From: a virus
Length of the DNA stretch: 11,436 nucleotides
Reading direction: 5' to 3' (one strand)
UHGV virus genome: UHGV-0258155
The notes below the pieces were generated by a model. It was given only the letters and a program-made list of their open reading frames with translations, was not told the origin of the DNA and did not search any database. The position numbers were made by a program, and so were the translations under genes. Position 1 is the stretch's first letter; the number at the start of each line of letters is the position of its first letter. This document shows, piece after piece, positions 1-10,844 of this stretch.

Positions 1-2813
1 CGCCAGGCATCCAGCAGTTCGTCGGCAAATACGGCATCTGGTTTGACTGCCTTCACGGCCTGGATCATGTCTGCTTTGGTACCGTACACTTTCAGTGGTG
101 CCGGTTTCTGTGCTTCCTGAGCCACAAGGTCAGGGTTGATGATTGCCAACTGCTCCAGCAGCGCGTCACGGCTGCCGCTGGTTTTAACCGGCGGCGGCAG
201 GGTGGCGTTGTACTCTTTAATGCATGCCTTCATTGCCGTCGCCGTCTGCTTCTGGTCACCATCAATACGCTGGAAGTCAGCTGGCAGCGCCATATAGTTC
301 TGTGCCGTTTCTTCCAGGTTAGCGCCAAGCGGAACCTGCGGCGGCAGGGTGGCGTTGTACTCTTCCAGTAACACCTTGATGTCGTCGGCAGACAGCAGCG
401 CCGGCAGGCTGGCATTGTGCTCATCGATAAAGGCGCGCAGGGTCGCGGCCGTTGTGAATGCGCCTTCAGGGATCACCGGTTCAACGCTGAATTCTGCGTC
501 CAGTAGTTCAGGCTGCAACGCCAGCGCATGCACCAAGTTGCCCATGTCCAGCACCGCTGAGCGCTCTTTGACGATGGTTTTCTCTACGTGGCGCGCATTG
601 AAGTACATCAGCGAAACGCGCGCATCTTTCACCTGGGTTGAGCTGATGCCGTTGGCGGCGTGGTAAACCTCGTTTGGCAGCCCTTCATAGCGGCCTGGCT
701 CGAAATAAGCGGGATAAACAACAGCCGGTTCGTCAGATTGCGCTTCTGGCTCGGTTTGTGCTGCAACTGGTTCGGTTTGGCTTACAGAATCGCTATTTTT
801 GGCGACAGAATCCGTATTCTGGTTTACATCGTCCTTCTGGCTGGTATCTGACTCTTCACCAGACTCCAGACTGCTTTCGCCTGGCTGTACTTCATCACCA
901 GCTTGTTTTTCATCACTGACAGTTTCTTGAACCTGCACATTGCTGGTGGTCTCCGTAGCCTTTTTCGTGCCATGAGTTGCTGAGTTCTGCAGCAAAGCCG
1001 TAACGTCGAATATTCCGTTGCCGACATTTTTAACCAGTTCTTGTTCGACTTTCTGCGGTTGTGCTGCCGCTTCCTCTGCGCGGCGGCGTGCTCCTTCTTC
1101 ACGCACGCGTTGCAGGTTCTCTTCGTGAGTGCAGAAGGATTTGCGCGGAGACTCCTTACCTTCAGGTTGGGGAATTTCCTGTGCTGCGGGTTCAGCCTCA
1201 TGCAACGGCAATAACTCGACCGCGGAATTGAACGCGGCTGTCATGGTCTGGTTAACAAATTCCAGGTGAGCGACAGGAGTTAAATGAATATTTTCCGGTG
1301 CGATACGTACCAGGTTAAAAATAGCCGTGCGGTTAACACCCAGAACGCCTGGCTGATTGCGCAGGATGTTGCTCCATGATTTCCATGGTTCTTCTTTTTT
1401 GGTCACGATTTCTTTAGCGCGACGAAGAATGCTGCCCGGGATCTCGAAGTGGTTGAAGTCCATAGGCAGAAGGGCACACGCAATCTCTAAATCGAGAGTG
1501 TCCAGTGTGTGGTGTGCGTCAGGTCCACGGTCAGTGACGTAACCGCCGTCGGCATTAGTGCCGGAATCAGTACGCTGCACACTACTGATGCGATTACCGG
1601 CGGCCCATTCGCGAACGAGGATACCGCGGTCGATGTGATCTGTAGCGAACCACAATTTCAAAAACTGGATTAAGGTTGCGAGTTCAGGGATTTTTCCATC
1701 GACAGGGAAGACTTTCTTAACGGCATTCACGACTTTATGAATATCGTGCTCAATGGCTTTTTTGAATGCTTCCACATTCTCAGCTGCCAGCAGCAGGTTC
1801 TGGACGTACGCGTCATCGGTGTCCATCTCAAGGCGGACAATCTCATTTTTCTGCCCTGCGTCGATGTGATAGAGATATTCACCATCACCGATGAACTGAG
1901 CCAGTACGCGCTGGCGGAATGGCAGGGTGGCAACAACGATCAGGTTCGGTTGCTGTGTCTGCTGGGATTGCTCTTCGGTATCGACTTCACCATCAACGAC
2001 GCCACCTTCTGCCCGGCCGTTCTCGTCGGTCTGGATACCGTCCTCAACAGTGAGATCTTGACCCGTTGTAACGTCAGCAGCGTTGCTGGTTTCAGTTTTG
2101 AGCAACTGCAACTTACCACTGCGCCAGTCTTCTACCAGTTGATTGCGGTCACCGGCATCGGTGTTCACCCAGTCAGACATGAATGCAGCGATCAATCTTG
2201 GTTCGTGCTCTTCGTCGGGTGTGAAAATGTCCTTAACCGCCCGAATCATTTTCCACTCAGCATTCAGGCTGAGTTTGGCGGTCGCGGGCACATCGTTCCT
2301 TGCCACAAGCAGGCTATGGAGATATGTATTGCCTTCATCCAGTGACATTTCGCTGGCAGCCAACTGCTGCTCTTTAGTGACGTGGGTTTGGTATTTATCG
2401 TTCATCAGATGGACGGCAAAGCGGACCGCTGGAGTACGGTTTTCAACCGGGACAATTTCGGACGCAGTCGCATCTTCAACGATTACGGTCGGAGTAGGTG
2501 TGTAGGGGGCGTCAACGGAACCAGTAGACACACCAGCGGCTTTTGGCAGCCAGGTGCGCCCATCGTCCTGAAGCTCGTAGCGATCACACCAGGTAAAATC
2601 AACTTCACCTTCTTTCGGCAGGCCGTCGACAACTGGGAAATCAGTGCGAATCGGTTTGGCGTAGTCCTTACCCCGACCTGTTTCGATACCTGCATCTTCC
2701 AGCGCAACATCCAGCATCAGATTGGCGCGAGCCTCGGTTTTAGCAGTGAACCAGACCACTGCATCTTGCTTTCCGGATTTCTGAGTGGCTTTAACCACAT
2801 TAAAGAATTCCAT
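1..2813 (-). CDS. recE: RecE-type exodeoxyribonuclease VIII (Rac-prophage-like); start ATG at 2813, 3' end lies beyond window start (>=937 codons in window)
   Basis: Minus-strand frame is open from 2813 to position 1; ATG at 2813-2811 is preceded by GAGGAT (RBS) and an in-frame TGA. Hand translation gives MEFFNVVKATQKSGKQDAVVWF...PVVDGLPKEGEVDFTWCDRYELQDDGRTW...REWAAGNRISSVQRTDSG...YFEPGRYEGLPNEVYHAANGISSTQVKDA. From memory these parallel E. coli RecE segments ([56 protein letters not shown]). The ORF track lists no complete ORF in this frame because it runs off the edge. Confidence 0.85.
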   Translation of the reverse strand, partial: MEFFNVVKATQKSGKQDAVVWFTAKTEARANLMLDVALEDAGIETGRGKDYAKPIRTDFPVVDGLPKEGEVDFTWCDRYELQDDGRTWLPKAAGVSTGSVDAPYTPTPTVIVEDATASEIVPVENRTPAVRFAVHLMNDKYQTHVTKEQQLAASEMSLDEGNTYLHSLLVARNDVPATAKLSLNAEWKMIRAVKDIFTPDEEHEPRLIAAFMSDWVNTDAGDRNQLVEDWRSGKLQLLKTETSNAADVTTGQDLTVEDGIQTDENGRAEGGVVDGEVDTEEQSQQTQQPNLIVVATLPFRQRVLAQFIGDGEYLYHIDAGQKNEIVRLEMDTDDAYVQNLLLAAENVEAFKKAIEHDIHKVVNAVKKVFPVDGKIPELATLIQFLKLWFATDHIDRGILVREWAAGNRISSVQRTDSGTNADGGYVTDRGPDAHHTLDTLDLEIACALLPMDFNHFEIPGSILRRAKEIVTKKEEPWKSWSNILRNQPGVLGVNRTAIFNLVRIAPENIHLTPVAHLEFVNQTMTAAFNSAVELLPLHEAEPAAQEIPQPEGKESPRKSFCTHEENLQRVREEGARRRAEEAAAQPQKVEQELVKNVGNGIFDVTALLQNSATHGTKKATETTSNVQVQETVSDEKQAGDEVQPGESSLESGEESDTSQKDDVNQNTDSVAKNSDSVSQTEPVAAQTEPEAQSDEPAVVYPAYFEPGRYEGLPNEVYHAANGISSTQVKDARVSLMYFNARHVEKTIVKERSAVLDMGNLVHALALQPELLDAEFSVEPVIPEGAFTTAATLRAFIDEHNASLPALLSADDIKVLLEEYNATLPPQVPLGANLEETAQNYMALPADFQRIDGDQKQTATAMKACIKEYNATLPPPVKTSGSRDALLEQLAIINPDLVAQEAQKPAPLKVYGTKADMIQAVKAVKPDAVFADELLDAW
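191..364 (-). repeat. Pair of identical 27-bp direct repeats (191-217 and 338-364), 147 bp apart and in frame inside recE; each encodes EYNATLPP
   Basis: gcggcggcagggtggcgttgtactctt occurs at 191-217 and 338-364. Translation in the recE frame gives KEYNATLPPP and EEYNATLPPQ; a third degenerate copy DEHNASLPA lies upstream in the protein. Confidence 0.8.
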
Positions 2814-2931
2814 GTGAGATCCTCATTTTTGGGTGTTAGAATCCCCGGACCATTGATAGCGCCCATTGGGTTAACTTTGGTTTTAATGTTGTTTCCGGTG
2901 TAACTTTGGTCGGTGAGGCCGGACATGGCGG

Positions 2932-2947
2932 GCCCACTTCGGTGGGC
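2932..2947 (-). other. GC-rich hairpin (GCCCAC-TTCG-GTGGGC) in the intergenic region between the RacC-position ORF stop and the recE start
   Basis: Perfect 6-bp inverted repeat with a 4-nt loop read directly; no U-tract follows on the minus-strand transcript, so this is not a classical intrinsic terminator. Confidence 0.3.
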
Positions 2948-2953
2948 TTTCGC

Positions 2954-3241
2954 TTAACTGACGGCTACGATCGCCTCATTCATAAAATCTTGCTTGTATG
3001 TACGGTAGGTTCCCCAGCCGGCGTAATCGCTATCGCTGATTTTGAGTACCAGCAAGCTGATCTCCTCAATGGCGCAGTGCGGGCAATCAAACTTGCCAAG
3101 CACATAGCCACCGTCGAGAATGACTGTTGTTTCACCGTTTGTAGTTGAGTGAATAACGCCTGATACTTTCTTCTCGCAGTTGAATGCAGCCACTTCTTTA
3201 TTCACTGCTTTCAGGTTCATTTCGATTTTTACGATTTCCAT
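2954..3241 (-). CDS. Hypothetical 95-aa protein immediately upstream of recE (RacC position; identity not verified)
   Basis: ORF-track ORF with ATG at 3241 preceded by GGAG at about 6 nt spacing; co-oriented with the operon. Contains C..C and CPHC motifs. Confidence 0.5.
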   Translation of the reverse strand: MEIVKIEMNLKAVNKEVAAFNCEKKVSGVIHSTTNGETTVILDGGYVLGKFDCPHCAIEEISLLVLKISDSDYAGWGTYRTYKQDFMNEAIVAVS

Positions 3242-3886: not shown

Positions 3887-4129
3887 TTATTCACACTTTG
3901 CATGCCTGACCGGCTTTAATTTCCACTCAGTGGCCTTAAGCTCAATTTCCTTCCTGATTTCCTGATACGTTTTCACGGAGCCATCAGCGTTTTTATTGAA
4001 CGGATTGAGCGTTTGATAAAACTTTTCCCGTCGTTTGCAGGCTTTACCGCATACGTCACACTTCCCTGATTTCTCAGCAAAAGTTGAGATCTCATCGAAC
4101 CGAGTTGTTGTAATTCCACCCCATCCCAT
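3887..4129 (-). CDS. Hypothetical 80-aa Cys-containing protein
   Basis: ORF-track ORF; ATG at 4129 preceded by AGAGGGTAAGG; CDVCGKAC motif; followed by the terminator at 3866-3886. Confidence 0.5.
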   Translation of the reverse strand: MGWGGITTTRFDEISTFAEKSGKCDVCGKACKRREKFYQTLNPFNKNADGSVKTYQEIRKEIELKATEWKLKPVRHAKCE

Positions 4130-5396: not shown

Positions 5397-6329
5397 TTAA
5401 AGAACCGATTTAACAAGATGGTTTTTACGGTACAGACCTATGCGATCATTGTGAATCTCAGTAGTCTCCACTAAAAGAGAAACAATCTGTCCGACCTTGT
5501 GTTTTTTTTGTATTAAATCTAGCATTTCAATCGGATAGGAAGCCTTTAAATGTTCACCACCAACATCAAGCTCCAGCTTCCCATATTTGGATAGAACGAC
5601 CAGTTCGCCTGTAACCGTTTCAGTAATGGGAGGGGATGAAATGGTTGATGTAAGTCTACTCACCAAGTACTTAATTTTATTGGAGTCAATAGTTGCCACC
5701 TTGGTGCCATTACTAAATGGACCGGTCCAACTTGCATCAAATGTTAAGTTGTGTTTATCGCATTCCTCTACGATTCTCTTAAGGCTTACAGTGGAATTGT
5801 ATCCAATTTCAGCGACGTGATTCATGAAGTTGTTGTCGTCATCGCTTAACAACAAATCGAATATGCCTTTTACAGCCTTGCTGGGTACTGTTTCTACTAA
5901 TTCTGCTATTCCTGTAGAGAAGGTGACGCCCAATTTTGTAGACCCAGGGGATAAATCAGCCAGCCTGAGGTTTAAGGAGCTTTTCACGTCGTAGGGAACT
6001 TTTTTTGAGTCCTTGCCTGAGGCAATTTTGTGTGTTGCTCTTTGTATTAGCGCTGCAAGATTTGTTGAAATAGCCCCAAGCAGCTCTAAAGGAATAGAGC
6101 CAAAGTCAACCTCAGAGCCTTTCAGCCGCAGCTCAAAAAAATCGATAAGTGGGTGCCGACTATCTTGCTTTAATTTTTCGGCCTTCAAATCGCTCAGATG
6201 AGAATCCATGGAGCGATAAAGAAGCATGTCAGCAAAGGACCTGGTTTTGTTTTGCTTCATTGCATCGACTTCTTTTTGAATGAAATCAATGCGTTTATCG
6301 CAATTTTTAAACATTGATTTATCATTCAT
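5397..6329 (-). CDS. Hypothetical 310-aa protein, second gene of the cassette; no motif recognised
   Basis: ORF-track ORF; ATG at 6329 overlaps the TGA of the upstream gene (ATGA, 6326-6329), with GAGGA upstream; AT-rich codon usage (K/N/I/S rich); followed by an intrinsic terminator. Confidence 0.7.
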   Translation of the reverse strand: MNDKSMFKNCDKRIDFIQKEVDAMKQNKTRSFADMLLYRSMDSHLSDLKAEKLKQDSRHPLIDFFELRLKGSEVDFGSIPLELLGAISTNLAALIQRATHKIASGKDSKKVPYDVKSSLNLRLADLSPGSTKLGVTFSTGIAELVETVPSKAVKGIFDLLLSDDDNNFMNHVAEIGYNSTVSLKRIVEECDKHNLTFDASWTGPFSNGTKVATIDSNKIKYLVSRLTSTISSPPITETVTGELVVLSKYGKLELDVGGEHLKASYPIEMLDLIQKKHKVGQIVSLLVETTEIHNDRIGLYRKNHLVKSVL

Positions 6330-6805
6330 AAAAAAATCCTCACTAACCCTTTCGGGTTTTCACTGCGATCAAAACCAAACCAACCGCGCCAGTAGCTACG
6401 CCAGTACTCATAATCATAGTTAGGGTCATCTAAATTCTTCATGAGTAGTAGGACATCAATTTTGTAGTTTTGTTTGATGTAGTTTCGGTCAAGCAAATTA
6501 TCGACGCGGCCCCGAAGCATGACAGGTATTGAGTTTATATTGCTATAGTCACATACCAACAAAATATCAATATCATCAGGCTCTGGTTTAGACGTGGTGT
6601 ATGAACCATCAACCCATATTTCTGTAAAACAGCCATATTGAGCAGATAATTCTCGAATAGATTCGAGTAGCTGTATAAAATTACAGTATAGCATGCCTCG
6701 CCTGGATGATGAAGGAAAGCAATCGACACAATACGATTTTAATCCAGCTTCATCCATGTCATGGAACCCTGGCTCAAACAGGGGTGGGTAATTAATTTTA
6801 TCCAT
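6326..6805 (-). CDS. 159-aa protein with a minimal nucleotidyltransferase (Pol-beta superfamily)-like motif, first gene of the cassette
   Basis: ORF-track ORF; ATG at 6805. Sequence IWVDGSYTTSKPEPDDIDILLV fits the hG[GS]-x9-13-DxD pattern, with a further candidate acidic residue in NYKIDVLLL. Motif match by eye only. Confidence 0.65.
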   Translation of the reverse strand: MDKINYPPLFEPGFHDMDEAGLKSYCVDCFPSSSRRGMLYCNFIQLLESIRELSAQYGCFTEIWVDGSYTTSKPEPDDIDILLVCDYSNINSIPVMLRGRVDNLLDRNYIKQNYKIDVLLLMKNLDDPNYDYEYWRSYWRGWFGFDRSENPKGLVRIFL

Positions 6806-6841
6806 AAAAAACCTTGCTATACATTTGTTTTTTTTATTAAA

Positions 6842-6869
6842 AATCTAACCACCGAAATGGTGACGGCAA
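6842..6869 (-). promoter_or_regulatory. Candidate promoter for the cassette: TTGCCG (6869-6864) - 16 bp - TAGATT (6847-6842)
   Basis: Read on the minus strand about 37 nt upstream of the ATG at 6805; the spacer contains a short inverted repeat CACC-N6-GGTG. Read-through from the cI promoter is an alternative. Confidence 0.3.
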
Positions 6870-6953: not shown

Positions 6954-7066
6954 ATCACCCAAACGTCTCATCAGGCCACCATAAGCACGATCGCAACAAC
7001 CGAGAGCAAAGTAACCACGCCTACTATCAGATATTCTCTTATCACCCAAACGTCTCTTCAGGCCAC
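6954..7066. repeat. Two 26-bp direct repeats (6954-6979 and 7041-7066, one mismatch) between the cI stop and the cassette
   Basis: atcacccaaacgtctcatcaggccac and atcacccaaacgtctcttcaggccac read directly, 87 bp apart; the second copy ends 5 nt from the cI stop codon. Confidence 0.75.
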
Positions 7067-7071
7067 TAAAA

Positions 7072-7782
7072 TTATCGGCGATATCGCAATACCGAGTACC
7101 AGAACACAAAACCGATTATCTCGACATCTGCCTCATCAGCCTCTTCATCGTCATAATCGCGATTGATGCTTCGTATTAATAGCTTCCCACCAGGCTTTCG
7201 ATAAAGCTGCTTTATGCGCTTTAAATCGCCCTGGTTAATAGCATAGAGTTCGCCGTCAATAATCCGCTTGTTGCCTGTATCGACTGCTACCGTTGCGCCG
7301 TCAGGAATAACGGGCTCCATGCTGTCACCAGAAGCGGGAAAGCAAAGCACTCCAGAACCATCACTATTTGCACCCACCCTTCTGAGCGTTGCCTTGGAGA
7401 ACCTCAGTTTAAAGCCGTTATGATCTTCGCTATGAACACGCCCATCACCACACGCAAACTCGATATCCTTCAGAAACGGTACTTCCACCTCATCGTCAGG
7501 TAGGGGGGTATTTTTGTCCCAAGCGTCGACAGTTCCCCACTCAGACTCTGGCGGGATGTTGCTCTCCAGATCCTTCTTTGGAGAACCCTCTCCATTTAAT
7601 AACCAGTCAAGAGAATAACCGAATTTTTCAGATATTTGTTGCGCCGCCTCACGACTTAACGCGTCTCTTTTTATCCAGTTGTTGACGGTCTGTGGGCTAG
7701 TCGACAAAGCCTCAGCCAAATCCCGCTGCTTCAAGCCTTCCCTTGCCAGTAAAAATTTAATTCTTTCAGAAATGCTGCTCAT
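7072..7782 (-). CDS. CI-type prophage repressor: N-terminal XRE-family HTH plus C-terminal S24 (LexA-like) self-cleaving peptidase domain
   Basis: ORF-track ORF 7072..7836. I place the start at the internal ATG 7782 (MSSISERIKFLLAREGLKQRDLAEAL...), which has GGAGCGGAGGG immediately upstream. GDSMEP (Ser nucleophile) and a downstream LKRIK Lys fit the S24 family. Confidence 0.85.
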   Translation of the reverse strand: MSSISERIKFLLAREGLKQRDLAEALSTSPQTVNNWIKRDALSREAAQQISEKFGYSLDWLLNGEGSPKKDLESNIPPESEWGTVDAWDKNTPLPDDEVEVPFLKDIEFACGDGRVHSEDHNGFKLRFSKATLRRVGANSDGSGVLCFPASGDSMEPVIPDGATVAVDTGNKRIIDGELYAINQGDLKRIKQLYRKPGGKLLIRSINRDYDDEEADEADVEIIGFVFWYSVLRYRR

Positions 7783-7899
7783 AAAACCCTCCGCTCCATG
7801 CATGGTAAACAACATGTGGATTTTTTCCATCACCATAATGTTGATTTAATCCACGCCATGAATTAACATGGTGTTGATTACACATGAGCGGAGCAAAAC
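7783..7899. promoter_or_regulatory. OR-like divergent promoter/operator region between the cI-like and cro-like genes; three TGTKGATT repeats (7815, 7839, 7872); candidate PR TTGATT (7841-7846) - 17 bp - TAACAT (7864-7869)
   Basis: Repeats read directly and shared with the OL-like cluster; the motif GGTGTTGA at 7870-7877 recurs as its reverse complement TCAACACC at 4947-4954. Confidence 0.45.
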
Positions 7900-8121
7900 A
7901 TGATCAACAAAAAATCCAACGCCAGCACCCCGCTTGAGAAAGCCATTAATGCAGTGGGCGGCTCTCAAAAGGTGCTTGCTGAAAAGGTCGGCGTAACGCC
8001 TCAGGCCATCAATATGCTTAAAAAGCGAGGTGGCAGCCTTCCAGTAACAAAAATGCGTAAATACGAAGAAGTAACCGGACTTCCTCGCGAAGTTCTATAT
8101 CCAGGTATCTTTGCCGCCTAA
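7900..8121 (+). CDS. Cro/YdaS-like small HTH regulator (73 aa)
   Basis: ORF-track ORF divergent from the repressor; GGAG 6 nt upstream of the ATG; AINAVGGSQKVLAEKVGVTPQAINMLKKRG is a typical Cro/YdaS-type helix-turn-helix. Confidence 0.7.
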   Translation: MINKKSNASTPLEKAINAVGGSQKVLAEKVGVTPQAINMLKKRGGSLPVTKMRKYEEVTGLPREVLYPGIFAA

Positions 8122-8151: not shown

Positions 8152-8694
8152 ATGCATTCACTTGCGTATCAACACAATACCGGAATACACCCGGGAGCGA
8201 TGATAAACCGCGCTCAAGCTAAAGCGACGCCGGACCACGAAAAGATCCGCGATGCGGTCCGTGCCTGGTCATCGGCGCTGGATAATCAGGACGTGGTGTC
8301 AGCGCTGATCATCAACGAATACCGGGAGCAGGGCGGGACCGCCATCAGCTTTCCGGACGACATCAGCCGGGCGCGCCAGAAGCTGTTCCGCTTTCTGGAT
8401 AACCGCTTCGACTCTGAGCAGTACCGCGAGAACGTGCGCCAGCTGACACCGGCAATCATGGCGGTCCTGCCGGTTGAGTATCGCACTCGCCTGATCGGTG
8501 CCGATTGCAAAATGTCTCGCCTGGCTGAGGCCGAGAAAGAACTCGCAGAGGCTAAACAGGCCGTGCTGCTGGACGCTCCAGAGCATCAGAAGCTGAAAGA
8601 GGTAAGCGAGGGTATAGCGTCGCTCTTCCGCCTCATGCCGGAGCAGGTAGGACCGCTGATGACGATGGTTACATCGATGCTGGGGGTTATATGA
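8152..8694 (+). CDS. Hypothetical 180-aa protein in the CII/YdaT position (phage regulatory protein-like; weakly supported)
   Basis: ORF-track ORF; AAGGGAAAG RBS upstream of the ATG at 8152; second gene of the rightward operon after cro-like. Family assignment is positional and from vague recall. Confidence 0.5.
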   Translation: MHSLAYQHNTGIHPGAMINRAQAKATPDHEKIRDAVRAWSSALDNQDVVSALIINEYREQGGTAISFPDDISRARQKLFRFLDNRFDSEQYRENVRQLTPAIMAVLPVEYRTRLIGADCKMSRLAEAEKELAEAKQAVLLDAPEHQKLKEVSEGIASLFRLMPEQVGPLMTMVTSMLGVI

Positions 8695-8714
8695 GAGGCA
8701 CAAGAAAAGAAAAA

Positions 8715-8740
8715 GCCCTTGAAGCGGTAACTTCAAAGGC
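8715..8740 (+). other. Imperfect 10-bp inverted repeat (GCCCTTGAAG-CGGTAA-CTTCAAAGGC) between the CII-position gene and the O-like gene
   Basis: Read directly; one mismatch in the stem; not followed by a U-tract. Could be a rho-dependent or regulated terminator, or a protein-binding site. Confidence 0.3.
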
Positions 8741-8779
8741 CCTTATCACACTGTGTTACGCCAAGTAACGGGAGTAAGT

Positions 8780-9649
8780 ATGTCAAACACCGCAGAAATT
8801 CTCAACTTTCCCGCTGTAGTTTCGGGAATACAGGAGCAACGCGTGGCCGATACAGACGATGGGTACACCCGTCTGGCAAACGAGTTGTATGAGGAGCTTA
8901 TCGGCGCGAACCTGACCAAAAATCAGGCCAAGGTAGCTCATGCTGTTTGCCGCAAAACCTATGGGTTCAACAAAAAGATGGACCGCATAGCAGACTCACA
9001 ACTTTCTGAGCTGACCAGGCTACCTCGCCAGAAGGTTAACGCTGCCAAAAACGAACTCATTGCGATGAATGTTTTGGTGTCCGACGGCATGCTGATCGGG
9101 CCCAACAAAAACCTGAGTGAGTGGGTAATTCCGGGCACTAAGCCTGCGCCAAAATGTCACCATAGTAGTGACTGTCACCATGGTAGTGACAGTGTCCCTA
9201 CGGTGGTGACAAAAAGTGTCACCAAAACAGTGACAACCCTGTCACCAAAATGGGGACACACAAAAGACACTATTACAAAAGACAATAAAGACAATATTAA
9301 TAAACCCCCTAAATCCCCCAAACAGGCTTCGTTCGATCCGGCTGGTGTTGACCTTCCTGAATGGCTGTCAGTTTCAGTCTGGAAGTCATGGGTCGATTAT
9401 CGTCGTGACCTGAAGAAACCGATCAAGTCTCAGCAGACAGTTACCAAGGCCATCAACCTGCTCGAGCGTTGCAAGTGCAGCGGATATCAGCCTGAAGAAA
9501 TTATCAACCAGAGCATTGCTAACGGCTGGCAGGGTTTGTTTGAGCCTAAGGGCGCCAAGCAGCCTTCCCGTACTCCGTCACGCGTATCTGAGAACTTCGC
9601 TGGCAAGGACTATGGCCAGACTGAAATCCCATCATGGGCGAGGGACTGA
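8780..9649 (+). CDS. Lambda O-like replication initiator (289 aa)
   Basis: ORF-track ORF 8753..9649 begins with GTG. I place the start at ATG 8780 (GGGAG RBS), giving MSNTAEILNF...VADTDDGYTRLANELYEELIGANLTKNQAKVAHAVCRKTYGFNKKMDRIADSQLSELTRLP...NKNLSEWVIP. This closely parallels the lambda O N-terminus as I remember it (MTNTAKILNF...VADLDDGYARL...LTKRQFKV...RKTYGWNKPMDRITDSQLSEITKLP...NKNISEWCIP). Confidence 0.85.
   Translation: MSNTAEILNFPAVVSGIQEQRVADTDDGYTRLANELYEELIGANLTKNQAKVAHAVCRKTYGFNKKMDRIADSQLSELTRLPRQKVNAAKNELIAMNVLVSDGMLIGPNKNLSEWVIPGTKPAPKCHHSSDCHHGSDSVPTVVTKSVTKTVTTLSPKWGHTKDTITKDNKDNINKPPKSPKQASFDPAGVDLPEWLSVSVWKSWVDYRRDLKKPIKSQQTVTKAINLLERCKCSGYQPEEIINQSIANGWQGLFEPKGAKQPSRTPSRVSENFAGKDYGQTEIPSWARD
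9155..9305. other. Candidate replication origin inside the O-like gene: cluster of GTCAC/GTGAC dyad iterons (9155-9250) followed by an A-rich stretch (9261-9305)
   Basis: Dyads read directly at about 18-24 bp spacing (GTGACtGTCAC at 9168-9178, GGTGACAaaaagTGTCACC at 9205-9223, GTGACAacccTGTCAC at 9230-9245), then caaaagacactattacaaaagacaataaagacaatattaataaa. The encoded peptide here is a low-complexity linker (HHSSDCHHGSDS...TKSVTKTVTT). Confidence 0.55.
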
Positions 9650-9651
9650 GT

Positions 9652-10506
9652 ATGGAACTGCTCGAAAAAATCGACGCTATCGAAAAAATGCTGGACGTTC
9701 TCGGCAGGCCGCCAGAGCAACTCCCTAACTGCGAGATCGTCTGTGAAACGGTGCTTTGCGAGAAACACGGCGAATACGAACAGCGTAAACGCGTGCTTAC
9801 CAGCAGCCTGATCAAGCTGCCGTCACCGCCGACTCGTTGTCCGGGCTGCCTGCGCGATGAGTTGACCTTCCTGTATGCCGAGAAAAAGCGTTGGGAAGAC
9901 CGCACGCGCCAGCAGAACATCGATCGCCTGCTGCGCCAGCTCGAAATCCCTGAGCGCTTTGTGACGTGCACGCTGGAAAACTACCAGCCGGTGGGCAAAG
10001 AGTCAGAACGCGCGCTGCGTGTTTGCCAGGCGTATGCCGCGAAGTGGCCGGAGCGCCTGAAGCAGGGTGGCGGTCTGGTGATGTGCGGAAAGCCGGGCAC
10101 CGGGAAAAACCATCTTGCCCTGGCGATTGCCCGCTATGTCATCGAGAACCACCAGAGCCCGGTAATTTTCACCACCGCGCTGAAGATTGCCCGTGAGTTC
10201 AAATCAACGTGGTCGAAAACAGCGACGCGCTGCGAGAACGACGTGATTGCGCACTTCACCACCCCGGACCTGTTGATCATCGATGAGGTCGGCGTCCAGT
10301 TCGGCAGTGAAGCCGAGAAGCTGATCATGTTCGAAATCATCAACACCCGGTACGAGCGGATGAAGCCGACCATCCTGATCAGCAACCAGACCAAAGAAGA
10401 ACTGGCGGCGTTCGTGAGTGAGCGCGTTATTGACCGCATGAGCGATGGCGGCGGGTGCACGCTGTCATTCACCTGGGATTCTTACCGTTCCAAGGGGGCA
10501 GCATGA
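9652..10506 (+). CDS. DnaC/IstB-like AAA+ helicase loader (replication protein)
   Basis: ORF-track ORF 9634..10506. I prefer ATG 9652 (GAGGGA upstream; the ATG at 9634 lacks an RBS). Walker A GKPGTGKNHLA and Walker B LLIIDEVG read from the translation. Confidence 0.85.
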   Translation: MELLEKIDAIEKMLDVLGRPPEQLPNCEIVCETVLCEKHGEYEQRKRVLTSSLIKLPSPPTRCPGCLRDELTFLYAEKKRWEDRTRQQNIDRLLRQLEIPERFVTCTLENYQPVGKESERALRVCQAYAAKWPERLKQGGGLVMCGKPGTGKNHLALAIARYVIENHQSPVIFTTALKIAREFKSTWSKTATRCENDVIAHFTTPDLLIIDEVGVQFGSEAEKLIMFEIINTRYERMKPTILISNQTKEELAAFVSERVIDRMSDGGGCTLSFTWDSYRSKGAA

Positions 10507-10844
10507 CCATAACAATCCGTGAGCAGGTGCTGGCGGCCCTGCGCAATAACCCAGGGCTGAATAGTGCTCGTATTGCCAGCATGATCGGCATGACCACCAA
10601 AAAGATATCCGGAACGGTGAGCACGCTGCTGGCAGACGGCTTGATCGAGTTCGAAGGCAAGCACGGACAGCGGCTTTATCGGCTGACCGATTACGGCATG
10701 AAATACGCACCAGAAACAATCCCGGCTATGCCGAAGGGAAATTCGAAGCTGGTGCAGCGTACAGAGGCAAACGTGATCTGCCAGGAGTGCCGCAACAGCG
10801 CGGCGATGAGAAGAATTTTAAGCGTATACGGGGTGAGAGCATGA
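10503..10844 (+). CDS. Hypothetical 113-aa protein, probable winged-helix DNA-binding fold
   Basis: Internal ATG 10503 overlaps the DnaC-like stop (ATGA) with AAGGGGG upstream. IREQVLAALRNNPGLNSARIASMIGMTTKKISGTVSTLLADGLIE resembles a wHTH. The ORF-track start at 10455 overlaps the upstream gene and is less likely. Confidence 0.55.
   Translation: MTITIREQVLAALRNNPGLNSARIASMIGMTTKKISGTVSTLLADGLIEFEGKHGQRLYRLTDYGMKYAPETIPAMPKGNSKLVQRTEANVICQECRNSAAMRRILSVYGVRA

What the first reader, a model, noticed from the sequence alone, without database searches (positions are those of the whole stretch)
9155..9305. Origin-like iteron cluster and A-rich tract embedded in the O-like gene
At least four GTGAC/GTCAC dyad elements at about 18-24 bp spacing are followed by a 45-bp A-rich tract, inside the low-complexity linker-coding part of the O-like gene. 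This is the lambda arrangement (ori-lambda iterons within O), so the prophage probably retains a functional, initiator-specific origin with a distinct iteron sequence.
Basis: partly seen in the sequence, partly recalled or inferred. Interest (0 to 1): 0.45.

Follow-up and report, generated by a model that had tools for sequence, protein, structure and literature searches.

The report
Lambda-type replication origin inside O-like gene
The repeats are real and form an ordinary lambda-style phage replication origin, with five initiator-binding sites and an easily melted A-rich stretch inside the initiator's own gene; it has a different binding-site sequence from lambda but the same layout.

Summary
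Window 9155-9258 holds five 19-bp dyad repeats with consensus TGTCACC-N6-GTGACA. They are followed by a 47-nt tract (9258-9304) that is 60% A.

Everything lies in the predicted disordered linker of a Pfam Phage_rep_O initiator gene (8780-9649). A DnaC/IstB-like loader gene follows at 9652-10506.

The last four repeats have the start-to-start spacing of lambda's four annotated iterons (20, 24, 23 bp). The first 25 nt of the A-rich tract are identical to lambda and phage 21.

Across 16 related loci from a dozen or more enterobacterial genera and three phage records, the repeat arms are nearly invariant while centres and spacers drift. There is no codon-position signal, and the same motif is read in all three frames. 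The constraint therefore acts on DNA, not on protein.

The arm sequence changes in step with the start of the initiator's predicted recognition helix (LPRQKVN here, LPVKRCN in lambda).

The same repeat type occurs, unannotated, in sequenced phages Sf101, mEp043, SEN22 and Proteus vB_BPM-V3. This is a new member of a well-known kind. Binding and replication were not tested.

The parts
8780..9649 (+). O-like replication initiator gene (289 aa). It has an N-terminal winged-helix domain, a disordered linker and a helical C-terminal domain.
   Evidence: ORF and translation. Pfam PF04492 Phage_rep_O at aa 21-115, E = 3e-38. AF2 model: aa 29-112 confident with H-H-H-H-beta-beta, aa 121-182 pLDDT below 50, aa 183-262 helical. 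2470 database relatives with E <= 1e-5.
9023..9064 (+). Codons 82-95, covering the predicted recognition helix (model helix aa 83-95) of the winged-helix domain. It starts LPRQKVN. This motif tracks the repeat type.
   Evidence: Model helix 83-95. N-domain alignment grouped by repeat type.
9155..9173 (.). Iteron 0 (extra, upstream): TGTCACCATAGTAGTGAC(T). It abuts iteron 1 at 18-bp spacing. It is present only in the window's sub-lineage (L018, L019, L025, ES2).
9173..9191 (.). Iteron 1: TGTCACCATGGTAGTGACA. Its dyad centre lies 75.5 nt upstream of the A-tract anchor, as for lambda iteron 1.
9193..9211 (.). Iteron 2: TGTCCCTACGGTGGTGACA. The left arm is degenerate. By the start-to-start spacing, its dyad centre lies 55.5 nt from the anchor.
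9217..9235 (.). Iteron 3: TGTCACCAAAACAGTGACA. Dyad centre 31.5 nt from the anchor.
9240..9258 (.). Iteron 4: TGTCACCAAAATGGGGACA. The right arm is GGGACA in all 15 loci of this type where it was located. By the start-to-start spacing, its dyad centre lies 8.5 nt from the anchor, and it abuts the A-rich tract.
9258..9304 (+). A-rich, low-stability tract, the inferred DNA-unwinding element. Its first 25 nt, ACACAAAAGACACTATTACAAAAGA, are identical to lambda and phage 21.
   Evidence: Composition and nearest-neighbour stability. Identity to phage 21 and lambda. Near-invariant across 16 loci.
9305..9319 (+). C-run element CCCCCTAAATCCCCC on the right flank of the A-rich tract. A related CCCCC...CCCCC(..GGGGG) element is present in many relatives. 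Its role is unknown.
   Evidence: Read directly. Relatives.
9652..10506 (+). DnaC/IstB-like AAA+ gene (284 aa), the inferred helicase loader that partners the initiator's C-terminal domain.
   Evidence: Pfam IstB_IS21 E = 8e-16 and Bac_DnaA E = 2e-9. The same C-domain type is followed by a DnaC-like gene in W619, AW1.7, EH09, GZ7, ES2, mEpX1 and N7.

Best explanation
Window 9155-9304 is the replication origin of a lambdoid prophage, homologous to ori-lambda and embedded in the linker-coding part of its own initiator gene.

The inferred mechanism has six steps:
1. Rightward transcription from the cro side expresses the O-like initiator.
2. Dimers of its N-terminal winged-helix domain bind the five 19-bp dyad repeats TGTCACC-N6-GTGACA. 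The arms are read by the start of helix 83-95 (LPRQKVN).
3. The array of bound dimers wraps and bends the DNA into an O-some-like complex.
4. That strain melts the adjacent A-rich tract at 9258-9304.
5. The initiator's C-terminal domain recruits the DnaC-like loader encoded next door, which brings in host DnaB.
6. The fifth, upstream repeat at 18-bp spacing is an accessory site, like the extra iterons of Stx phages.

What is shown: the repeats, their geometry, their homology to ori-lambda, selection at the DNA level, and covariation with the initiator's predicted recognition helix. What is inferred from lambda biology: binding, bending, melting, loader recruitment and activity in this particular prophage.
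For: - **Non-random repeats.** Five clustered dyads; 0 of 200 shuffles reach the observed match count.
- **Lambda geometry.** The start-to-start spacing of 20/24/23 equals that of lambda's annotated iterons. Dyad centres fall at the same distances from the ACACAAAAGA anchor (75.5, 55.5, 31.5 and 8.5 nt; not every centre was detected in every locus) in the window, phage 21, GZ7, AW1.7, phiEt88 and L038/L039.
- **Shared A-rich tract.** 25 nt are identical to lambda and phage 21. The tract is the least stable 40-mer of the O-like gene, z = 3.1.
- **Constraint on DNA, not protein.** Across 16 loci with this repeat type, arm columns average 0.21 bits of entropy (36 of 55 invariant), against 0.67 for centres and 0.70 for spacers (Mann-Whitney p = 2e-5).
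- **No codon signal.** Entropy by codon position is flat in the array (0.37/0.38/0.40) but 0.39/0.23/1.23 in the N-domain of the same genes. The five repeats are read in three different frames.
- **Specificity covariation.**
  - LPRQKVN with GTCACC, in 18 of 18 loci.
  - ISRSKAN with GTTACC.
  - LSRQNVN with GTCTC.
  - LPVKRCN with TCCCTC (lambda type).
  - a TKCS/HKCS motif with TTACC (P22 type).
  - IHHTHVC with TTAGCC.
  - LSDTHVS with TTCCCG (phi80, where gp15 sites are annotated).
- **Mosaic junction.** GZ7, AW1.7 and EH09 share the A-rich tract and C-domain with the window but have a different N-domain and different repeats. Similarity starts at window 9258, exactly after the last repeat.
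- **Fold.** The N-domain models as a winged helix and the repeats lie in the disordered linker. All top Foldseek hits are winged-helix regulators, but only at E >= 0.05.
- **Published background.** Lambdoid origins consist of iterons plus an AT-rich tract in the middle of O (PMC7466680). P22 gene 18 and phage L gene 18 carry their own repeats (PMC8022706).
Against: - No experiment shows binding or replication for this repeat type, and no paper describing it was found.
- Iteron 2 has a degenerate left arm (TGTCCCT) and iteron 4 a degenerate right arm (GGGACA).
- The inverted repeat that lambda and phi80 carry to the right of the AT-rich tract is absent here. The window has CCCCCTAAATCCCCC instead.
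- The structural matches to winged-helix proteins are not statistically significant (E >= 0.05).
- The sequences compared are phylogenetically related, so the column statistics are not fully independent.
Confidence: 0.82

Rival explanations
1. The repeats are a by-product of a repetitive, low-complexity protein linker (a tandem peptide duplication) and have no DNA-level function.
For: The region encodes a low-complexity, predicted disordered segment, CHHSSDCHHGSDSVPTVVTKSVTKTVT. The first two repeats are in the same frame and give a CHHxSD peptide repeat.
Against: - The same DNA motif is read in three different frames.
- It is dyad-symmetric.
- Conservation follows the arm/centre/spacer pattern rather than codon position: 0.37/0.38/0.40 in the array against 0.39/0.23/1.23 in the N-domain.
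- The repeat type co-varies with the DNA-binding helix of the N-domain.
Confidence: 0.03
2. It is a genuine ori-lambda-type origin by descent, but it is inactive in this prophage. This could be because the prophage is defective, because the degenerate arms no longer support O-some assembly, or because the initiator or loader is non-functional.
For: Only 11.4 kb of the element is visible, so intactness of the whole prophage cannot be judged. Iterons 2 and 4 each have one degenerate arm. Disrupted copies do exist: in L020 a Klebsiella plasmid homologue carries about 1.3 kb inserted between the N-domain and the repeats.
Against: - The O-like and DnaC-like ORFs are full length compared with their homologues.
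- The degenerate arms are lineage-wide features, not private decay.
- The closest relatives (L018 99% and L019 97% in the N-domain; W619 98% over the 1-kb query) differ in the array only at centre and spacer positions.
- The W619 relative sits in an apparently complete lambdoid prophage running from integrase to terminase.
- The cI-like repressor keeps its S24 autocleavage domain.
Confidence: 0.12
3. The dyads are binding sites for a different protein, such as a repressor-type regulator or a host factor, or they act as RNA hairpins or terminators. On this reading they are not initiator-binding sites.
For: The simple terminator scan flags two minus-strand hairpin-plus-T-run matches at 9247-9228 and 9235-9217. 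Dyad symmetry as such is typical of many operators.
Against: - Those terminator matches are just the dyad arms plus the A-tract centres read on the other strand.
- The arm sequence co-varies with the initiator's own helix motif, and the N-domain and repeats travel together across mosaic junctions.
- The positions are superimposable on lambda's experimentally defined O-binding iterons.
- There is no DnaA box nearby.
Confidence: 0.03

Closest known systems
ori-lambda (phages lambda, 21 and 434): four O-binding iterons plus an AT-rich tract inside gene O
   Same: - It occupies the same place, in the linker between the N- and C-terminal domains of a PF04492 initiator.
- It has 19-bp dyad repeats.
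- The spacing of the four proximal repeats is identical (20/24/23), as is their distance to the A-rich tract.
- 25 nt of the A-rich tract are identical.
- An oop-like antisense unit lies upstream.
   Different: - The arm sequence is TGTCACC/GTGACA instead of TCCCTC/GAGGGA.
- The recognition helix starts LPRQKVN instead of LPVKRCN.
- There are five repeats instead of four.
- The C-terminal domain is different, and the partner is a DnaC/IstB-like ATPase instead of lambda P.
- The inverted repeat that follows lambda's AT-rich tract is absent.
Phage P22 origin in gene 18 (annotated rep_origin in BK000583) and the GZ7/AW1.7-type prophage origins
   Same: They share the same architecture and anchor distances. 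GZ7, AW1.7 and EH09 share the window's A-rich tract, C-terminal domain and DnaC-like partner at 78-94% DNA identity from window 9258 onward.
   Different: Their repeats are TTTACC-N5/6-GGTAAA, with a different N-domain carrying a TKCS/HKCS helix start. P22 itself pairs with a DnaB-like helicase, gp12.
Phage phi80 origin in gene 15 (gp15 binding sites annotated in JX871397)
   Same: It has repeats followed by an A-rich tract inside the O-like gene. Window 8700-8812, which covers the oop/M3 RNA region and the start of the gene, is 95.6% identical to phi80.
   Different: The phi80 repeats are TTCCCG-AAAA-CGGGAA at about 21-bp spacing. Both the N-domain and the C-domain differ, and the partner is P-like gp14.
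Stx-phage origins (933W, P27) with six iterons
   Same: They carry extra iterons upstream of the four core ones. PMC7466680 reports that the extra ones are bound weakly yet are needed for replication. The window's iteron 0, and the six repeats of ES2, are analogous.
   Different: Stx phages keep lambda-type arms and the P partner. Here the extra repeat abuts iteron 1 at 18 bp.
O genes of phages Sf101, mEp043, SEN22, PhiR12 and Proteus vB_BPM-V3
   Same: They have the same TGTCACC/GTGACA repeat type, the same LPRQKVN helix start and the same 20/24/23 geometry.
   Different: Their N-domains are only 66-84% identical to the window's. They have four repeats, not five. Their C-terminal domains and partners differ (a DnaB-like helicase in V3, another protein in Sf101). 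The repeats are not annotated in the Sf101 and Proteus vB_BPM-V3 records, which were the two inspected.

Membership tests
ori-lambda-type lambdoid origin (iterons plus AT-rich tract within the initiator gene) | Located inside a PF04492 (Phage_rep_O) initiator gene, between its N-terminal DNA-binding domain and its C-terminal domain | tested here: met
   Pfam hit at aa 21-115. The repeats and A-tract map to aa 126-175, inside the pLDDT<50 linker at aa 121-182.
ori-lambda-type lambdoid origin (iterons plus AT-rich tract within the initiator gene) | An array of about four ~19-bp imperfectly dyad-symmetric repeats at about 20-24 bp spacing | tested here: met
   Five repeats with spacing 18/20/24/23. 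0 of 200 shuffles reach the match count. The last four are superimposable on lambda's annotated iterons.
ori-lambda-type lambdoid origin (iterons plus AT-rich tract within the initiator gene) | An A/T-rich, easily melted tract directly adjoining the last iteron | tested here: met
   9258-9304 is 60% A, with GC down to 0.33. It is the least stable 40-mer in the gene, z = 3.1. 25 nt are identical to lambda and phage 21.
ori-lambda-type lambdoid origin (iterons plus AT-rich tract within the initiator gene) | Repeat sequence specific to, and co-inherited with, the initiator's N-terminal domain | tested here: met
   Eight repeat types match eight recognition-helix motifs across about 40 loci. The mosaic junction lies at 9258.
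ori-lambda-type lambdoid origin (iterons plus AT-rich tract within the initiator gene) | Selection acting on the DNA sequence of the repeats independently of coding | tested here: met
   Arm, centre and spacer entropies are 0.21, 0.67 and 0.70 bits, p = 2e-5. The codon-position profile is flat in the array, unlike 0.39/0.23/1.23 in the N-domain. Three reading frames are used.
ori-lambda-type lambdoid origin (iterons plus AT-rich tract within the initiator gene) | A helicase-loader or helicase gene immediately downstream of the initiator gene | tested here: met
   DnaC/IstB-like gene at 9652-10506.
ori-lambda-type lambdoid origin (iterons plus AT-rich tract within the initiator gene) | An inverted repeat to the right of the AT-rich tract, as in lambda and phi80 | tested here: not met
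   The window has CCCCCTAAATCCCCC without a complementary G-run. Several relatives have CCCCC..GGGGG. Whether this feature truly defines the family is uncertain; its weighting rests on my own recollection of lambda literature.
ori-lambda-type lambdoid origin (iterons plus AT-rich tract within the initiator gene) | The initiator binds the repeats, and the fragment supports initiator-dependent replication | not testable with these tools
   This needs EMSA or footprinting and a replication assay.
Plasmid-type iteron origins (RepA/pi/TrfA class) | Directly repeated, non-palindromic 17-22 bp iterons together with DnaA boxes, outside the rep gene | tested here: not met
   The repeats are dyad-symmetric and lie inside the initiator gene. 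The only DnaA-box match in the window is at 3887, at chance level.

The most novel reading that the evidence does not exclude
The O family carries a simple, readable recognition code. A few residues at the start of the recognition helix (LPRQKVN, ISRSKAN, LSRQNVN, LPVKRCN and others) set the iteron arm (GTCACC, GTTACC, GTCTC, TCCCTC and others) on an otherwise fixed 20/24/23 scaffold.

If so, the replicon specificity groups of lambdoid prophages could be predicted from sequence alone. The TGTCACC group, with its lineage-specific abutting fifth iteron at 18 bp, would be an uncharacterised specificity class with an altered O-some geometry.
Probability: 0.35. Interest if true: 0.4.

Novelty: new member of a known kind. 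Interest (0 to 1): 0.2.

Why it matters
It locates the origin and the initiator-origin specificity class of a common enterobacterial prophage replication module. About 2,500 relatives were found, and one 97%-identical cluster has 969 member sequences.

The comparative series is a clean natural experiment for how winged-helix initiators change DNA specificity: the scaffold stays the same while arm sequences and helix motifs are swapped. It could also be used to predict replicon interference between co-resident prophages.

It does not change the understanding of lambdoid replication.

Tried and rejected
- **Rac prophage oriJ.** I checked whether this is the K-12 Rac ydaU/ydaV module. K-12 YdaU is annotated as a DUF1376 protein, so the Rac module gave no annotation-level match and was not pursued; no sequence comparison was made.
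- **Solved structures.** A sequence search of the PDB with the N-domain gave only a chance hit, E = 0.85. Foldseek against the PDB gave only winged-helix regulators at E >= 0.05, which is suggestive but not significant.
- **Rfam.** Nothing was found in or near the origin.
- **DnaA boxes.** There are none near the origin.
- **A sixth iteron at 6848-6864.** I considered this site next to the most AT-rich stretch of the window. It has 2 mismatches, such matches are expected by chance (mean 2.5 per shuffled window), and it sits in a promoter or terminator-like intergenic hairpin. Rejected as chance.
- **Terminator-like hits at 9217-9247 on the minus strand.** These are the dyads themselves.
- **Literature.** Searches for this repeat sequence, and for origin descriptions in the Sf101, mEp043 and SEN22 papers, found nothing.
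- **Detection artefact.** The 3-mismatch 'sites' at offset 54 are the everted junction between iterons 2 and 3, not extra iterons.

Full report
**What is in the sequence**

The window is the early region of a lambdoid prophage. Its genes, in order:

| Coordinates | Strand | Gene | Evidence |
|---|---|---|---|
| 7072-7836 | - | cI-like repressor with an S24 peptidase domain | |
| 7900-8121 | + | cro-like HTH gene | |
| 8152-8694 | + | YdaT/cII-position gene | |
| 8780-9649 | + | 289-aa O-like initiator, Pfam Phage_rep_O at aa 21-115, E = 3e-38 | |
| 9652-10506 | + | DnaC/IstB-like AAA+ gene | |
| 10503-10844 | + | Ren-like gene | |

Inside the O-like gene, the repeat finder reports five copies of a dyad element at 9155, 9173, 9193, 9217 and 9240, with spacing 18, 20, 24 and 23 bp. 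The consensus is TGTCACC-N6-GTGACA.

With up to two mismatches, the pattern matches 13 times in the window, counting both strands. Ten of these matches are the five sites. Dinucleotide shuffles average 2.5 matches, and none of 200 shuffles reaches 13.

Directly after the last repeat comes a tract (9258-9304) with 29 A among the 48 bases 9258-9305. It is the third least stable non-overlapping 40-mer of the whole 11.4-kb window and the least stable within the O-like gene, with z = 3.1. There are five repeats rather than 'at least four'.

**Homology to ori-lambda**

Lambda's own record annotates four iterons, with starts 20, 24 and 23 bp apart. These are the spacings of the window's last four repeats.

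I measured dyad centres from the conserved string ACACAAAAGA that begins the A-rich tract. The centres found lie at four fixed distances:
- The full set is 75.5, 55.5, 31.5 and 8.5 nt, although not every centre was detected in every locus.
- They recur in the window, phage 21 (lambda-type repeats), the GZ7/AW1.7 prophage type, phiEt88 and two further genome loci.
- The mEpX1 type agrees to within 1 nt.

The first 25 nt of the tract (ACACAAAAGACACTATTACAAAAGA) are identical in the window, phage 21 and lambda.

P22's record annotates the equivalent segment of gene 18 as rep_origin. The phi80 record annotates gp15 binding sites at the equivalent place in gene 15. PMC7466680 and PMC8022706 state the general rule that lambdoid origins consist of iterons plus an AT-rich tract in the middle of the O-type gene, and that each specificity type has its own repeats.

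**The constraint is on DNA, not on the encoded peptide**

I aligned 16 loci that carry this repeat type, without gaps, on the anchor. They were the window, E. coli ES2, phages Sf101 and Proteus vB_BPM-V3, and 12 genome loci: an Enterobacter MAG, an Enterobacter sp. isolate, Huaxiibacter, two Pantoea species, Erwinia, Trabulsiella, Tatumella, Photorhabdus, Rosenbergiella, Serratia and Arsenophonus.

- Arm columns average 0.21 bits of entropy, and 36 of 55 are invariant.
- Repeat centres average 0.67 bits and inter-repeat spacers 0.70 bits (Mann-Whitney p = 2.4e-5).
- Entropy by codon position is flat in the array (0.37/0.38/0.40). The N-domain of the same genes shows the usual coding signature (0.39/0.23/1.23).
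- The five repeats are read in three different frames, giving CHH.., CHH.., SVP.., SVT.. and LSP...
- An AlphaFold2 model built on 31 homologues gives a confident winged-helix N-domain (aa 29-112), a helical C-domain (aa 183-262) and a pLDDT<50 linker at aa 121-182. That linker corresponds to window 9140-9325 and so covers the repeats and the A-tract.

Together these results reject the rival that the repeats merely reflect a repetitive peptide.

**Specificity**

The repeat type changes in step with the N-domain.
- All relatives at 66% N-domain identity or more that were examined carry TGTCACC/GTGACA repeats.
- Relatives at 59-63% identity carry lambda-type ATCCCTC..GAGGGA.
- More distant relatives carry TTAGCC..GGCTAA, TTTACC..GGTAAA (P22 type), TGTCTC..GAGACA, TGTTACC..GGTAACA or TTCCCG..CGGGAA (phi80).
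- A Deltaproteobacteria MAG carries GTCTCTC..GAGAGAC.
- All of these sit on the same scaffold and are followed by the same A-rich motif.

In the protein alignment the discriminating residues sit at the start of the predicted recognition helix. LPRQKVN is present in all 18 loci with this repeat type, and each other type has its own motif.

The mosaic structure agrees. GZ7, AW1.7 and EH09 share the window's A-rich tract, C-domain and DnaC-like partner, but they have a different N-domain and different repeats. DNA similarity begins at window 9258, exactly after the last repeat.

**Mechanism (inferred from lambda)**

Initiator dimers bind the dyads and assemble an O-some-like complex. That complex melts the adjoining A-rich tract, and the C-domain recruits the DnaC-like loader together with host DnaB.

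The extra upstream repeat is present only in the window's sub-lineage (L018, L019, L025), and ES2 has two extra. It resembles the accessory iterons of Stx phages, which are bound weakly but are needed for replication (PMC7466680).

None of these steps can be tested here. Whether the origin still fires in this prophage rests on four observations:
- Both ORFs are intact.
- The degenerate arms are lineage-wide features, not private decay.
- Differences from the closest relatives fall in centres and spacers only.
- A 98%-identical copy sits in a complete-looking prophage in E. coli W619.

**Novelty**

No paper describing this repeat sequence was found, and no phage in the collection has an N-domain more than 84% identical. 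However, the same repeat type is present, unannotated in the two records inspected, in published phage genomes (Sf101, mEp043, SEN22, PhiR12, Proteus vB_BPM-V3). The protein family is abundant.

This is a new member of a very well-known kind. It is a sound annotation with modest scientific surprise.

Noticed in passing
window 8705-8805, minus strand: An oop-like antisense RNA unit. A promoter-like site lies at 8805->8777 (TTGAGA-17-CATACT with an upstream TG), and a strong intrinsic terminator lies at 8744->8711 followed by a T-run. Window 8700-8812 is 95.6% identical to the phi80 region annotated as M3 RNA, 'homolog of lambda oop RNA'.
   Followed up: partly
window 5397-6329 and 6326-6805, minus strand: Two overlapping low-GC genes lie downstream of the cI-like repressor, in the rexAB position. 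They match the PADLOC candidate defence system PDC-M63 (B: E = 7e-45; A: E = 2e-41) and PHROGs of unknown function. This is probably a prophage-borne two-gene defence cassette.
   Followed up: partly
window 2855-2952, plus strand: An Rfam isrB (Hfq-binding sRNA) match at 38.2 bits, with a gathering score of 35. It lies just upstream of the start of a RecE-like ORF that runs off the window start on the minus strand (2822->1, 940 codons open).
   Followed up: no
window 6954-6979 and 7041-7066: A 26-nt direct repeat, ATCACCCAAACGTCTC(A/T)TCAGGCCAC, with one mismatch and 87 bp apart. It lies at and just beyond the 3' end of the cI-like gene. It may be a relic of a recombination between repressor alleles.
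   Followed up: no
window 6848-6864: A weak iteron-like dyad, GTCACCATTTCGGTGGT, with 2 mismatches. It sits next to the least stable stretch of the window (6805-6847). The match is at chance level, and it is probably an intergenic hairpin rather than an initiator site.
   Followed up: partly
L020 (Klebsiella sp. WOUb02 plasmid) 1857-3233: The homologous O-type gene is interrupted here. The N-domain coding part ends near 1857, and the TGTCACC repeats reappear at 3153-3233. This implies an insertion of about 1.3 kb between the DNA-binding domain and its origin.
   Followed up: no
window 9600-9649 (O-like C-terminal tail); L017 KO-TP1: The extreme C-terminal tail of the initiator seems to track the partner type. 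The tail ...DYGQTEIPSWARD occurs where a DnaC-like gene follows. The tail ...HWNSPDAWRDFL resembles lambda/phi80 ...NTDW.YG.. and occurs where a P-like gene follows, as in KO-TP1. Several database homologues carry this second tail on an otherwise similar C-domain.
   Followed up: partly
window 9652-9990: The DnaC/IstB-like protein has an N-terminal extension of about 110 aa with cysteine pairs (CEIVCETVLCEKHG ... CPGC). This suggests a zinc-binding module ahead of the AAA+ domain.
   Followed up: no
window 9193-9211 and 9240-9258: Two arms deviate from the consensus in a lambda-like direction. The left arm of iteron 2 is TGTCCCT, which contains lambda's TCCCT. The right arm of iteron 4 is GGGGACA, as in lambda iteron 4. 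Both deviations are lineage-wide. They may be a trace of how specificity types arise by partial replacement on a fixed scaffold.
   Followed up: no
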